Assembly: GCA_963739685.1 (NCBI GenBank)
Contig: CAVUAX010000002.1
Coordinates: forward strand, 712,323 to 776,322
Direction: 5' to 3'
Length of the DNA: 64,000 nt
Source: an uncultured Bacteroidales bacterium
GTDB taxonomy: Bacteria > Bacteroidota > Bacteroidia > Bacteroidales > VadinHA17
Below are positions 8,003 to 15,552 of this stretch, in pieces. Every line of letters starts with the position of its first letter. Position 1 is the stretch's first letter. The position numbers and the translations under genes were made by a program. The notes below the pieces were generated by a model. It was not told the DNA's origin and ran no database searches. It saw only the letters and a list, made by a program, of their open reading frames with translations.

Positions 8003-8091
8003 GGAGAGATGGCAGAGTGGTCGAATGCGGCGGTCTCGAAAACCGTTGTTCGCCTTCCGGCGAACCGGGGGTTCGAATCCCCCTCTCTCCG
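8003..8091 (+). tRNA. tRNA-Ser (anticodon CGA), type II with long variable arm
   Basis: Hand-folded cloverleaf. Acceptor stem is GGAGAGA/TCTCTCC plus G73. Anticodon stem-loop is GCGGT-CTCGAAA-ACCGT. Variable arm is GTTCGCC-TTCC-GGCGAAC. T arm is GGGGG-TTCGAAT-CCCCC. No encoded CCA. Confidence 0.93.
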
Positions 8092-8104
8092 CAAAGGCAA
8101 ATCA

Positions 8105-8133
8105 AACCCCGCGCCAGCGGGGTTATTTATTTT
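8105..8133 (+). terminator. Rho-independent terminator of tRNA-Ser(CGA)
   Basis: AACCCCGC-GCCA-GCGGGGTT hairpin followed by ATTTATTTT. Confidence 0.75.
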
Positions 8134-8185
8134 ACCGGGGCTCCGAAGAAAGCTTGCTTTCTGAAGGAGTTTCGGTAAAATAAAT
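8125..8185. repeat. 61-nt imperfect palindrome in the tRNA trailer (left copy)
   Basis: The arms ATTTATTTTACCG (8125-8137) and CGGTAAAATAAAT (8173-8185) enclose CTCC..AGAAAGC-TT-GCTTTCT..GGAG. The same sequence occurs in inverted form at 15372-15432. Confidence 0.85.
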
Positions 8186-8190
8186 ATTAA

Positions 8191-8678
8191 CCCGTCAGGG
8201 TTTGATTTGCCTTTGCAGGACTCCCCACAGGGGATCACGAACGAACGAAGTGAGGTCGTAATCCCTGAAAACTGTCAGGGTTTAATTTGCCTTTGCAGGA
8301 CTCCCCACAGGGGATCACGAACGAACGAAGTGAGGTCGTAATCCCTGTAACCCGTCAGGGTTTGTTTTGCCTTTGCAGGACTCCCCACAGGGGATCACGA
8401 ACGAACGAAGTGAGGTCGTAATCCCTGTAACCCGTCAGGGTTTGATTTGCCTTTGCAGGACTCCCCACCGGGGATCACGAACGAACGAAGTGAGGTCGTA
8501 ATCCCTGTAACCCGTCAGGGTTTGATTTGCCTTTGCAGGACTCCCCACCGGGGATCACGAACGAACGAAGTGAGGTCGTAATCCCTGTAACCCGTCAGGG
8601 TTTGTTTTGCCTTTGCAGGACTCCCCACAGGGGATCACGAACGAACGAAGTGAGGTCGTAATCCCTGAAAACTGTCAG
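8191..8678. repeat. Tandem array of an 80-bp noncoding repeat, 6 full units plus 8 nt
   Basis: Units fall at 8191, 8271, 8351, 8431, 8511 and 8591. The consensus is CCCGTCAGGGTTTGATTTGCCTTTGCAGGACTCCCCACAGGGGATCACGAACGAACGAAGTGAGGTCGTAATCCCTGTAA. Only three variable spots are seen. Confidence 0.97.
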
Positions 8679-8960
8679 AAGCCATCTGTAGTTACAAGGA
8701 TCACTCCCCTCCTGTTTCTAACTGGCAAGAGTGAATGCCTGGCAGATGGGTTAATTCAAAATGATCATGAAAATATTAAGTATTAATTGAACTTTTCGGA
8801 ATAAACTATTGTTATTTATTTAACAGCTATATTACAAAACTGGTTAATAATTAACTTCAGGAATTAACCATTTCTAAATTTTATTAAAACAAATAAATGA
8901 TTTTATTATTAAGAAATAAAAAATTTGTCCAATAGTATTAATCCTATTAATAAAAACATT

Positions 8961-14964: not shown

Positions 14965-15046
14965 CTTGTTTTTAGGAAGATAACAAGAAGAATCAGTTTA
15001 ATCTTAAATGATTGGAGTGATCCCAATTTTTTACCGCTCCCGGATT

Positions 15047-15366
15047 TTCTTCACTCGTTGGTAAAACTCCGGTCGGTCATGATCCCCGGTGGGGAGTCCT
15101 GCAAAGGCAAATCAAACCCTGACGGGTTACAGGGATTACGACCTCACTTCGTTCGTTCGTGATCCCCGGTGGGGAGTCCTGCAAAGGCAAATCAAACCCT
15201 GACGGGTTACAGGGATTACGACCTCACTTCGTTCGTTCGTGATCCCCGGTGGGGAGTCCTGCAAAGGCAAATCAAACCCTGACAGTTTTCAGGGATTACG
15301 ACCTCACTTCGTTCGTTCGTGATCCCCGGTGGGGAGTCCTGCAAAGGCAAATCAAACCCTGACGGG
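15047..15366. repeat. Second array of the same 80-bp repeat in inverted orientation, 3 intact units plus 1 decayed unit
   Basis: Intact units lie at 15287-15366, 15207-15286 and 15127-15206. In unit 15047-15126 only about 15077-15126 still matches. All units carry the CCCCACCGGGG variant. Confidence 0.95.
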
Positions 15367-15371
15367 TTAAT

Positions 15372-15432
15372 ATTTATTTTACCGAAACTCCTTCAGAAAG
15401 CAAGCTTTCTTCGGAGCCCCGGTAAAATAAAT
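15372..15432. repeat. 61-nt imperfect palindrome in the tRNA trailer (right copy)
   Basis: Reverse complement of 8125-8185. Confidence 0.85.
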
Positions 15433-15452
15433 AACCCCGCTGGCGCGGGGTT
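15424..15452 (-). terminator. Rho-independent terminator of tRNA-Ser(GCU)
   Basis: Same AACCCCGC-GCCA-GCGGGGTT plus ATTTATTTT sequence as at 8105-8133, here on the minus strand. Confidence 0.75.
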
Positions 15453-15464
15453 TGATTTGCCTGT

Positions 15465-15552
<88 letters not shown>

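What the first reader, a model, noticed from the sequence alone, without database searches (positions are those of the whole stretch)
8191..8678. 80-bp noncoding tandem repeat whose invariant core folds into a hairpin
Six head-to-tail units occur with strict 80-bp phasing. 80 is not a multiple of 3, and the only ORFs crossing the array are artefacts that also run antisense through the tRNA. The invariant core CAGGGGATCACGA-ACGAACGAAGTGAGG-TCGTAATCCCTG can form an imperfect stem of about 12 bp with a 15-nt loop. An overlapping CCCC-ACA-GGGG mini-hairpin is an alternative fold. Variation is confined to three spots: the unit junction (CTGTAACCCGT vs CTGAAAACTGT), TTTGATTTG vs TTTAATTTG vs TTTGTTTTG, and CACAG vs CACCG in the mini-hairpin loop. 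There are no unique spacers, so this is not CRISPR-like. Possible roles are a tandem small-RNA or processing array, a phased protein-binding platform, or a transcription and recombination insulator next to the tRNA. None of these can be decided from the sequence alone.
Basis: seen in the sequence. Interest (0 to 1): 0.7.

Follow-up and report, generated by a model that had tools for sequence, protein, structure and literature searches.

The report
tRNA-linked palindromic mini-element, hairpin module amplified
The 80-bp repeat is an amplified piece of a roughly 190-bp hairpin-rich element that sits directly behind tRNA genes (mostly tRNA-Ser) in many uncultured Bacteroidota, looks like a tiny mobile insertion into the tRNA's T-loop, and matched nothing in Rfam or in my literature searches.

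Summary
There are 6.1 head-to-tail 80-bp units at 8188-8678, 96% identical with no indels.

A degenerate pattern for the hairpin found 112 stretches in Bacteroidota MAGs. In 98 tRNA-linked cases the hairpin lies on the tRNA strand, usually starting 134-158 nt past the tRNA 3' end (Ser 82, His 5, Met 5, Pro 5, Arg 1).

The conserved unit has these parts, in order:
- trailer arm
- terminator hairpin plus U-run
- long CUUG-capped hairpin
- small hairpin
- anti-trailer arm
- C-run
- a "core" hairpin that mimics the cognate T-arm

The fold covaries strongly. In many loci the core runs into an exact copy of the tRNA 3' end, followed by a different trailer, an old terminator or an older decayed copy. 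That is the signature of serial site-specific insertion at the T-loop.

Best reading (about 0.55): a non-autonomous tRNA-targeting insertion element whose right-end hairpin module was amplified here. The mobilising enzyme and any RNA role are unknown. Rfam holds no such family.

The parts
8003..8092 (+). tRNA-Ser(cga). The element abuts its last base. The T-arm is GGGGGTTCGAATCCCCC.
   Evidence: ARAGORN; Rfam tRNA 60.2 bits
8091..8109 (+). P1 5' arm, the 'trailer': GCAAAGGCAAATCAAACCC
   Evidence: Perfect 19-nt inverted repeat with 8198-8216 (I11). P1 is 96.5% paired across homologs, and all its pairs show changes on both sides.
8105..8134 (+). P2: a GC-rich hairpin (AACCCCGC-GCCA-GCGGGGTT) plus a U-run. 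This is the intrinsic terminator of the tRNA gene.
   Evidence: Terminator scan. The U-run columns are at least 90% conserved in 67 homologs.
8124..8186 (+). P3: a long hairpin. Its base pairs the U-run with an A-run, and its tip is GAAAG-CUUG-CUUUC (centre AAGCTT).
   Evidence: 21-nt arms, I21; fold. The five tip pairs each have 7-21 sequences changed on both sides. GCTTGC is present in 46 of 83 homologs.
8189..8202 (+). P4: a short hairpin, AACCC-GTCA-GGGTT. On the - strand, followed by a T-run, it reads as a terminator-like site.
   Evidence: Helix 9 is 78.5% paired, and all 4 of its pairs show changes on both sides.
8198..8216 (+). P1 3' arm, the 'anti-trailer', first copy. Further copies lie every 80 nt: 8278, 8358, 8438, 8518, 8598.
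8188..8678 (+). Array A: 6.1 units of 80 bp. Each unit is P4-like hairpin + anti-trailer arm + AGGACT + C-run + core hairpin.
   Evidence: TRF; sequence
8228..8267 (+). Core hairpin, first copy (a pseudo-T-arm: CAGGGGAT-C-ACGA..GAA..TCGT-A-ATCCCTG). Other copies are at 8308-8347, 8388-8427, 8468-8507, 8548-8587 and 8628-8667.
   Evidence: There are 134 distinct homologous cores with a covarying inner stem.
8698..8707 (+). GGATCACTCC: a possible remnant of a decayed core 20 nt past the array.
   Evidence: Sequence only. A similar remnant follows array B. Low confidence.
15465..15552 (-). tRNA-Ser(gct), followed by a second copy of the element
   Evidence: ARAGORN
15335..15466 (-). P1-P4 domain of the second copy. 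The trailer GCACAGGCAAATCAAACCC has one mismatch to its anti-trailer.
   Evidence: Covariance model R1, 127.6 bits; sequence
15066..15369 (-). Array B: 3.8 units of the same 80-bp repeat. Cores are at 15290-15329, 15210-15249 and 15130-15169. The last unit ends in a degenerate core (GGGGATCATGACCGACCGGAG...).
   Evidence: TRF
8064..8491 (.). Left arm of the 428-nt, 98% inverted repeat whose right arm is 15066-15493. The two arms flank 6.4 kb of housekeeping-type genes.
   Evidence: the repeat finder I1; Pfam of the enclosed ORFs

Best explanation
**What the array is.** The 80-bp array is a local amplification of the right-hand module of a roughly 190-bp, non-coding, largely palindromic element. 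The amplified module is a small hairpin, the anti-trailer arm, the C-run and the 'core' hairpin.

**What the element does (inferred).** It has inserted site-specifically into the T-loop of tRNA genes, between TTCG and AATCC.
- It brings its own copy of the tRNA 3' end (AAT + T-stem 3' strand + acceptor 3' strand + discriminator), so the tRNA stays intact.
- It brings its own terminator for the tRNA (P2).
- It pushes the original 3' end and trailer downstream, where they decay.
- Its right end is the core hairpin. One strand resembles the bottom strand and the other the top strand of the cognate T-arm. A folded single strand would therefore imitate the duplex target.

**Shown:**
- the family, its anatomy and its strict link to tRNA 3' ends
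- the covarying fold
- the duplicated tRNA 3' ends
- stacked copies of different age and subfamily

**Inferred:**
- The element moves, or moved, by a recombinase or transposase supplied in trans. The enzyme was not identified. It could be a tyrosine integrase tolerant of overlap heterology, or a hairpin-specific single-strand enzyme of the integron-IntI or IS200/IS605-TnpA type.
- The core is its recombination site.
- The window's arrays grew by unequal exchange or slippage. The likely substrate is the similar short sequences before the anti-trailer (TTAACCCGTCAGGG) and after the core (GAAAACTGTCAG). The same process, or gene conversion, homogenised the two tRNA-Ser loci.
For: **1. Family and position.** The pattern GGATCA-N3-5-CGAACNNAGNGAG-N2-4-GTAATCC hit 112 stretches in species-representative genomes. 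98 hits are tRNA-linked on the tRNA strand, and the first core mostly starts 134-158 nt after the tRNA end. The tRNAs are Ser 82, His 5, Met 5, Pro 5, Arg 1. Of 94 such tRNAs scored, 93 have a TTCGAATCC T-loop.

**2. Fold.** RNAfold gives the same four-way junction in diverse copies.
- Cognate trailer/anti-trailer pairs form 17.4 bp on average, against 8.3 for non-cognate pairs. There are 59 distinct trailers among 65 elements.
- On the covariance-model alignment, 88.5% of cells pair against 59.5% when shuffled.
- The covariation score is 0.633, against 0.155 shuffled (0 of 500 shuffles reach it) and 0.055-0.118 when partners are slid.

**3. The core imitates the cognate T-arm.** The outer stem is GGGGAT/ATCCCC at Ser, CAGGAT/ATCCTG at Pro and GAGGAT/ATCCTC at Met.

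**4. Insertion signature.**
- The core's 3' arm continues as an exact copy of the local tRNA 3' end. This is AATCCCCCTCTCTCCGC in L005, L015, L036, L060 and L084. It is AATCCCTCTTTCTCCGC in L047, L054 and L058, matching the tga-tRNA variant. A different trailer follows.
- In L060 that copy is followed by a plain trailer and a simple terminator, which looks like the pre-insertion state.
- In L054 it is followed by a complete older element of another subfamily with a decayed core.
- In L036 and L047 it is followed by older copies with internal deletions.
- L015 and L062 carry tandem whole copies, with a period of about 189 bp in L062.

**5. Sequence relationships.** Copies at different tRNA-Ser genes of one genome are near-identical (L022, L061, L070; window 98% over 428 nt). 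Copies between genomes differ with compensated changes.

**6. Transcription.** The U-run after P2 is at least 90% conserved. Most tRNA transcripts should therefore stop before the distal half, which argues for a DNA-level role of that half.

**7. Arrays elsewhere.** Arrays with unit lengths from 39 to about 189 bp all contain a core. Two relatives at the same locus also have arrays: a 61-bp unit with the same make-up as the window's, and three cores at about 43 nt.

**8. Not catalogued.** Rfam has no family for it.
Against: - No recombinase or transposase is consistently nearby. Larger inserts between cores carried an AAA ATPase, an unrelated IS transposase or a 206-aa ORF.
- No truly empty orthologous site was found. 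All six relatives examined at the RlmD-linked tRNA-Ser(gct) carry the element. Long vertical residence is therefore also compatible.
- The fold has RNA-like motifs (CUUG tetraloop, tandem G.A). Mismatches in helices lean towards G.T over A.C on the tRNA-sense strand (38 vs 21, p = 0.036, sequences not independent). This fits either a sense RNA or a sense single-stranded DNA.
- In the window itself only AATCCC of the displaced tRNA end remains.
- The right end of array A does not coincide with the proposed crossover point. The array extends 11 nt past the core.
- The invariant core positions are partly imposed by the search pattern.
Confidence: 0.55

Rival explanations
1. **A structured RNA made by read-through of the tRNA terminator (a 3' external spacer RNA).** P1 clamps the tRNA trailer. 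The T-arm-like core hairpins, amplified here to six copies, bind, titrate or act as decoys for a factor that recognises T-arms, such as a processing nuclease, a modification enzyme or a tRNA-targeting toxin. Extra copies would raise the dose.
For: - There is strong covariation in all helices.
- The motifs are RNA-typical: a G-CUUG-C tetraloop in 46 of 83 copies, and tandem G.A with GNA triloops.
- Mismatches show a sense-strand G.U excess.
- The core copies the T-stem of the cognate tRNA.
- Independent amplifications always include the core.
Against: - P2 plus its U-run is a conserved canonical terminator lying upstream of everything that is amplified.
- The exact tRNA 3'-end copies, followed by foreign trailers and stacked decayed copies, are DNA insertion events that an RNA role does not explain.
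- GNA triloops closed by C-G, and GCGAAGC, are also hallmark stable DNA mini-hairpins (my own knowledge of the Hirao et al. work).
- There is no Rfam family.
- Transcription could not be tested.
Confidence: 0.2
2. **A resident host cis-element, not mobile.** It would be a bidirectional terminator or insulator cassette inherited vertically behind isolated tRNA genes. P2 stops tRNA transcription, and P4 plus its T-run stops antisense transcription from downstream genes. Gene conversion keeps it uniform within a genome. Arrays and tRNA-end copies arise by replication slippage between the short AATCC(C) repeats in the T-loop and the core.
For: - Terminator-like sites lie on both strands.
- The element is present at the same locus in all six relatives spanning 77-86% RlmD identity.
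- Tandem whole-unit duplications with an identical trailer (L015, L062) are what slippage between AATCC repeats would give.
Against: - Slippage cannot place a different subfamily or a plain old terminator behind the displaced tRNA end (L054, L060, L036, L047).
- A terminator does not need a 19-bp trailer/anti-trailer helix or a sequence-conserved T-arm mimic.
- The same core occurs behind five tRNA identities with matching T-stem changes.
Confidence: 0.15
3. **Scars of large integrative elements.** The roughly 190-bp unit would be the conserved attachment-site end left behind after phages or integrative elements that target tRNA-Ser were deleted.
For: - Many phage records carry only the tRNA-Ser 3' end as a match to this region, as attP sites do.
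- tRNA 3'-end duplication is the classical integrase signature.
Against: - The size is uniform. The first core lies 134-158 nt from the tRNA in most of the 98 loci.
- There was no match in 2.9 million viral contigs (only the core motif was scanned), nor to the 216-nt element in the phage or plasmid collections.
- No integrase remnants were seen in the loci whose ORFs were listed.
- The internal fold covaries, which would not be expected of a decaying scar.
Confidence: 0.07

Closest known systems
Integrative elements that target tRNA genes through tyrosine integrases (for example Bacteroides NBU2 at tRNA-Ser; T-loop sublocation class)
   Same: - Insertion is in the 3' part of a tRNA gene.
- The element supplies a replacement 3' end.
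- The old 3' end remains as a direct repeat downstream.
- Copies stack, with the newest next to the tRNA.
   Different: - The element is about 190 bp with no integrase and no cargo.
- The sequence next to the junction (TCGTAAT) is not identical to the T-loop (TTCGAAT).
- The body is a covarying four-way junction rather than arm-type binding sites.
- Comparison with NBU2 rests on my own knowledge. Its att sequence was not compared here.
Integron attC sites and the CTX-phage attP(+) hairpin (recombination sites that work as folded single strands)
   Same: - Structure is conserved and sequence mostly is not.
- A conserved mismatch lies in the stem.
- The hairpin's two strands rebuild a duplex that resembles the target site.
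- Tandem arrays of site-bounded units occur.
   Different: - No R''/R' boxes (RYYYAAC / GTTRRRY) are present in the unit (by inspection).
- No IntI or dif context is present.
- The target is a tRNA T-loop.
- The units carry no ORFs.
- Single-strand activity is only inferred.
MITEs, PATEs and REP/BIME elements (small non-autonomous palindromic repeats; PATE definition as in PMC3119063)
   Same: - Small and non-coding.
- Hairpin-rich, with terminal inverted-repeat-like arms (P1).
- Multiple copies per genome.
- Presumably mobilised in trans.
   Different: - These copies are not dispersed. Nearly every copy is at a tRNA 3' end in one orientation. The few without a detected tRNA are mostly at locus or contig ends, or are orphans such as L076.
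- No related transposase ends are known.
- There is no GTAG head as in REPs.
- The 17-nt repeat is a copy of the tRNA end, not a staggered-cut target duplication.
Tandem small-RNA or protein-sponge arrays (cyanobacterial NsiR1 repeats, CsrB/RsmZ-type multi-hairpin RNAs)
   Same: A conserved hairpin is repeated head to tail, and copy number varies between lineages.
   Different: - No promoter is evident per unit.
- The arrays lie behind a conserved terminator.
- The unit length is not conserved.
- Function as RNA is untested.

Membership tests
CRISPR array | Identical repeats separated by unique spacers of similar length | tested here: not met
   The units abut each other with no unique sequence between them.
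Any Rfam 15 RNA family | Match to a curated covariance model | tested here: not met
   Only tRNA reaches the gathering score in the window and in 16 diverse homologous loci. At E<=10 nothing falls inside the array. The closest match is a weak Chlorobi-1 hit on P2 and the 5' part of P3 (18.9 bits, threshold 50).
tRNA-targeting integrative element (tyrosine integrase type) | Direct repeat of the tRNA 3' segment flanking the inserted DNA | tested here: met
   Exact 17-nt copies of the cognate tRNA 3' end follow the core in at least 8 loci, with a foreign trailer behind them. In the window only AATCCC survives.
tRNA-targeting integrative element (tyrosine integrase type) | Element encodes its own integrase | tested here: not met
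   The unit is about 190 bp and has no ORF. No integrase was found among the ORFs next to the window's two copies that were scanned against Pfam, nor in the larger inserts examined.
tRNA-targeting integrative element (tyrosine integrase type) | Empty and occupied alleles of the same site exist | tested here: inconclusive
   L060 keeps what looks like the old trailer and terminator behind the displaced end. However, all six orthologous loci fetched are occupied.
Integron attC / CALIN | R'' RYYYAAC and R' GTTRRRY boxes at the hairpin foot; IntI integrase in the genome | tested here: not met
   The unit has no such boxes (inspection). IntI presence is not testable with the loci held.
MITE | Terminal inverted repeats, short target-site duplication, ends shared with an autonomous transposon | tested here: inconclusive
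   P1 gives 17-20-bp inverted arms, but these lie inside the proposed element rather than at its ends, which are AATCC... and ...GT. No autonomous relative was found.
REP/BIME or PATE (Y1 HUH transposase-dependent) | Many dispersed intergenic copies; conserved 5' tetranucleotide or subterminal hairpins shared with a RAYT or IS200/IS605 gene | tested here: inconclusive
   Dispersal was tested and not met: copies occur only behind tRNA genes. Shared ends with a RAYT or IS200/IS605 gene were not tested, because whole genomes of carriers could not be scanned.
Intrinsic (rho-independent) terminator | GC-rich hairpin followed by a U-run directly after the gene | tested here: met
   P2 at 8105-8134 matches, and the U-run is at least 90% conserved. 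This applies to P2 only, not to the array.
Tandem sRNA gene array | Each unit is transcribed, with its own promoter or processing sites | not testable with these tools
   The sigma-70 scan found no promoter-like site within the arrays, but Bacteroidota promoters are not covered by that scan. No expression data are available.

The most novel reading that the evidence does not exclude
The element is a new class of structure-specific mobile DNA. As a single strand of about 190 nt it folds into a four-way junction plus a hairpin that counterfeits the duplex T-arm. A hairpin-recognising recombinase or HUH transposase uses this mimic to invade the T-loop of tRNA genes. The short core-bounded units (39-120 bp, including the window's 80-bp unit) would then be cassette-like insertions at resident cores rather than slippage products.
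Probability: 0.2. Interest if true: 0.88.

Novelty: new variant of a known kind. Interest (0 to 1): 0.72.

Why it matters
If the reading holds, this is a compact, self-contained DNA (or DNA/RNA) module that finds the T-loop of specific tRNA genes. It repairs the gene it interrupts, brings a terminator, and has spread through many uncultured Bacteroidales, Rikenellaceae, Flavobacteriales and Marinilabiliales.

It would be a bacterial counterpart of eukaryotic transposons that home to tRNA genes. It could also be a further natural example of a recombination site defined by fold rather than by sequence, which is of interest for programmable insertion tools.

There are practical consequences as well:
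- These arrays break short-read assemblies at tRNA genes.
- They could be mistaken for CRISPR-like or sRNA arrays.
- The element changes what lies behind attB sites commonly used by Bacteroidota integrative vectors and phages.

Tried and rejected
- **First genome scan.** An exact-stem pattern (GGGGATCACGA-N12-18-TCGTAATCCCTG) found nothing in the genome collection and only 2 metagenome loci. A looser, loop-centred pattern was needed.
- **Viral contigs.** No match.
- **Phage and plasmid collections.** Only the tRNA-Ser 3' end matches.
- **Rfam.** No family.
- **Single-unit folding energy.** Not significant.
- **MAFFT plus RNAalifold on whole elements.** It recovered only the P3 tip and the outer core stem, because P1 and P2 were misaligned. 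A covariance model on a cleaner seed fixed this.
- **Copy-number comparison between strains.** This failed. The only other contigs returned with the window's exact neighbouring proteins are short-read contigs that end at the tRNA or array.
- **Three locus look-ups were wasted** on flanks too short to reach the tRNA.
- **Search for an autonomous version between distant cores.** I found an AAA ATPase (L042), an unrelated IS transposase (L081) and an unknown 206-aa ORF (L076), but no recombinase.
- **Ideas considered and dropped:**
  - A tRNA minihelix (the GGAGAGA in the core loop does not change with tRNA identity).
  - The CCCC/GGGG switch hairpin (not complementary in Pro-linked copies).
  - A K-turn (no 3-nt bulge).
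  - A hammerhead or other small ribozyme (no core motifs by eye and no Rfam hit).
- **Literature searches** found no description of such an element. The library is incomplete, so this is weak evidence of novelty.
Full report
**1. The observation**

Tandem Repeats Finder reports one array at 8188-8678 with period 80, 6.1 copies, 96% matches and no indels. The 31-nt centre of the unit occurs nine times in the window without a mismatch, where shuffles give none. No ORF of 60 aa or more lies in the array, apart from one that runs antisense through the tRNA and only touches the first unit.

**2.

- The same call lists a second array of the same unit at 15066-15369 on the other strand, with 3.8 copies.
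- Each array lies about 95 nt downstream of a tRNA-Ser gene on the tRNA's own strand: tRNA-Ser(cga) at 8003-8092 (+) and tRNA-Ser(gct) at 15465-15552 (-).
- The two regions form a 428-nt inverted repeat of 98% identity. It starts inside the T-arm and runs through the arrays.
- Every unit contains GGGTTTGATTTGCCTTTGC. This is the exact reverse complement of the tRNA's discriminator base plus its 17-18-nt trailer at 8091-8109.
- Between trailer and first unit lie a canonical terminator hairpin with a U-run and a 63-nt near-palindrome centred on AAGCTT.
- The whole stretch 8091-8220 folds into one branched hairpin of -77.9 kcal/mol (z = -12.2). A single 80-nt unit is no more stable than shuffles (z about -1.4).
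- The 6.4 kb between the arrays carries ordinary genes: a cytochrome c, a NupC-type transporter and two YkuD transpeptidases. The flanks include a T9SS-tail protein, which points to Bacteroidota.

**3. Relatives**

- An exact-stem pattern found nothing in the species-representative genomes and two metagenome loci.
- In one of these, L001, a tRNA-Ser(gga) has a different trailer (GCAACTCTAAATTATTCCC). About 110 nt downstream lies that trailer's own reverse complement, followed by the same core hairpin.
- Syntenic loci were found through the neighbouring RlmD protein. They show a single copy of the same arrangement behind tRNA-Ser(gct). Trailer and anti-trailer differ between genomes but always match each other.
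- A looser pattern built from these examples then hit 112 stretches in MAGs of Bacteroidales, Rikenellaceae, Flavobacteriales and Marinilabiliales, plus one bin labelled Chlorobiota.

**4. Position**

Combining the hits with ARAGORN gives 98 elements in which the core lies on the tRNA strand. The first core usually starts 134-158 nt past the tRNA end. 82 elements are behind tRNA-Ser (all four anticodons), 5 behind His, 5 behind Met, 5 behind Pro and 1 behind Arg. All but one of the carrier tRNAs scored have the T-loop TTCGAATCC (93 of 94). The few tRNAs in these loci that the pattern missed carry shortened versions of the core. The family is therefore wider than my pattern.

**5. Anatomy and fold**

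Individual folds give the same four-way junction:

| Part | Description |
|---|---|
| P1 | trailer paired with anti-trailer, 17-20 bp, starting at the tRNA's last base |
| P2 | GC hairpin plus U-run |
| P3 | long hairpin whose base pairs the U-run with an A-run, usually tipped by G-CUUG-C |
| P4 | short GC hairpin, often GCGAAGC-like |
| Linker | single-stranded, C-rich |
| Core | the T-arm-like hairpin |

- Cognate trailer/anti-trailer pairs make 17.4 bp on average, against 8.3 for non-cognate pairs (95th percentile 13). There are 59 different trailers among 65 non-redundant elements.
- I built a covariance model of P1-P4 from 31 seeds. It found 153 matches, counting both strands of the palindrome.
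- On the resulting alignment, 88.5% of cells pair, against 59.5% when shuffled.
- All 49 pairs show changes on both sides.
- The covariation score is 0.633, against 0.155 shuffled (0 of 500) and 0.055-0.118 when partners are slid.
- Caveat: that alignment is fitted to the model and contains both strands.
- For the core, 134 distinct versions show at least seven fully Watson-Crick variants of the inner stem, or its replacement by tandem G.A pairs. The tip is a C-NNA-G triloop.

**6. The core imitates the T-arm**

- The outer stem follows the T-stem of the tRNA in front: GGGGAT/ATCCCC at Ser, CAGGAT/ATCCTG at Pro, GAGGAT/ATCCTC at Met.
- By inspection, its 5' strand (GGGGATCACGAAC) resembles the bottom strand of the T-arm DNA (GGGGGATTCGAAC).
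- Its 3' strand (GGTCGTAATCCCC) resembles the top strand (GGTTCGAATCCCC).
- The conserved C.A mismatch sits where the T-loop's C56 and A58 would flank an inserted helix.

**7. Signs of insertion**

In many loci the core's 3' arm runs on as an exact copy of the local tRNA 3' end up to the discriminator, and then into a different trailer. What follows is telling:

| Locus | What follows the displaced tRNA end |
|---|---|
| L060 | a plain trailer and a simple terminator, as expected of the tRNA gene before insertion |
| L054 | a complete element of another subfamily whose core has lost its tip |
| L036, L047 | older copies with P2-P3 deleted |

L015 and L062 have tandem whole copies.

In these stacked loci the intact copy lies next to the tRNA. 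Copies behind different tRNA-Ser genes of one genome are nearly identical. This is the pattern left by integrative elements that recombine in the T-loop and carry a replacement 3' end. The difference is that the 'element' here is about 190 bp and has no gene.

**8. Arrays**

About a quarter of the elements have two or more cores. Periods range from 39 to about 189 bp and the content between cores differs. At the window's own locus, a 77%-identity relative has three 61-bp units made of the same parts as the window's unit, with a shortened core. An 82% relative has three cores about 43 nt apart. The 80-bp phase is thus not a conserved property, but amplification of the core module is recurrent.

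In the window, the sequence after the core (CCCTGAAAACTGTCAG) resembles the P4 region before the anti-trailer (TTAACCCGTCAGGG). Both arrays show the order TAACC-unit, AAAAC-unit, TAACC-units. I infer that an unequal exchange between these short similar stretches made the first duplication, and that later expansion and conversion between the two loci followed. This step is inference.

**9. RNA or DNA?**

For a sense RNA:
- the CUUG tetraloop
- the tandem G.A pairs
- an excess of G.T over A.C single mismatches in helices on the tRNA-sense strand (38 vs 21, p = 0.036, sequences not independent)

Against a sense RNA:
- P2 with its U-run is a well-conserved terminator (at least 90% conserved columns). 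The distal half, including everything amplified here, should be transcribed only by read-through.
- C-GNA-G and GCGAAGC are also classic stable DNA mini-hairpins (my own knowledge).
- The insertion events are DNA events.

A fold acting in single-stranded DNA, as for integron attC sites or the CTX-phage attP, would reconcile the strand bias with the terminator. It is not shown. No recombinase was found near any copy, and I could not scan whole carrier genomes.

**10. Comparison with known things**

Rfam 15 has no matching family, in the window or in 16 diverse loci. The element is absent from the viral, phage and plasmid collections searched. Literature searches found no description, though the library is incomplete.

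- It is not CRISPR.
- It lacks attC boxes.
- It is not dispersed like REP, MITE or PATE elements (definition of PATEs from PMC3119063).
- It lacks the integrase of classical tRNA-targeting elements, yet shares their insertion signature.

I therefore file it as a new variant of a known kind: a miniature, non-autonomous, tRNA-T-loop-targeting insertion element with a structure-defined end.

**11. Verdict**

| Claim | Confidence |
|---|---|
| The array belongs to this conserved tRNA-linked family | very high |
| The family is, or was, mobile DNA inserting at the T-loop | about 0.55 |
| RNA decoy or processing role | about 0.2 |
| Non-mobile terminator/insulator cassette | about 0.15 |

Interest is 0.72. 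The family is widespread, sharply defined and apparently undescribed, and it poses a clear, testable question about how a 190-bp DNA finds a tRNA T-loop.

Noticed in passing
window 8064-8491 and 15066-15493: A 428-nt, 98% inverted repeat brackets 6.4 kb of housekeeping-type genes between two convergent tRNA-Ser genes. Homologous recombination could invert the segment. L005 shows the same convergent pair of tRNA-Ser genes with the same gene set between them.
   Followed up: partly
L005 10980-11065; L019 (- strand, after the first core); L081 about 590-700 and 2130-2200: An extra conserved module of about 85 nt (CTTCGCTCGCCATAGCC...GCGAGCTACGGCGGAC.CAGTCCGC) sits directly after the displaced tRNA 3' end and ends in a tRNA-end-like TCCGC before the next trailer. 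It may be a second kind of small insertion at tRNA 3' ends.
   Followed up: partly
L003 11435-11983: A C-rich 102-bp tandem repeat of 4.5 copies (CCCCCATCTCCCCTTCAAG...) lies immediately downstream of RlmD in a relative. It is absent from the window.
   Followed up: no
L003 12120-15175; L005 7424-10536; L123 8483-11595; L124 8479-11607: A gene pair (SpoIIE/PP2C phosphatase plus an AAA_15/AAA_21 ATPase) lies between RlmD and tRNA-Ser(gct) in most relatives. It is missing in the window and in L004. It looks like a variable island, possibly a defence system.
   Followed up: no
L123 11955-12125: A relative with 77% RlmD identity has a 3-copy, 61-bp array at the same locus. Its units have the same make-up as the window's but carry a 22-nt mini-core (GGGGATCGCCGAAGGCAATCCC) that my search pattern cannot find.
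   Followed up: partly
L124 12050-12076: The last of three cores ends exactly at ...GAGGCGT, just before the expected AATCC. That is the proposed crossover point.
   Followed up: no
window 8698-8707 (+) and 15014-15024 (-): GGATCACTCC motifs lie shortly after both arrays. They look like collapsed or decayed cores, and their inner-stem start matches the second core of L004.
   Followed up: no
window 8101-8158: A weak Rfam Chlorobi-1 match (18.9 bits against a threshold of 50, E = 0.02) covers P2 and the 5' half of P3. It is probably only a resemblance between terminator-like hairpins.
   Followed up: no
L076 5057-6250 (- strand): Two cores 1.16 kb apart share the same 13-nt 3' flank (GGTATTTTTAACT) and enclose a 206-aa ORF of unknown function. 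No tRNA is detected, so this may be a cargo-carrying or orphan arrangement.
   Followed up: partly
L118 and L119 (short-read contigs carrying the window's exact neighbouring proteins): Both contigs stop at the tRNA or array. These elements therefore fragment short-read assemblies at tRNA-Ser genes.
   Followed up: yes
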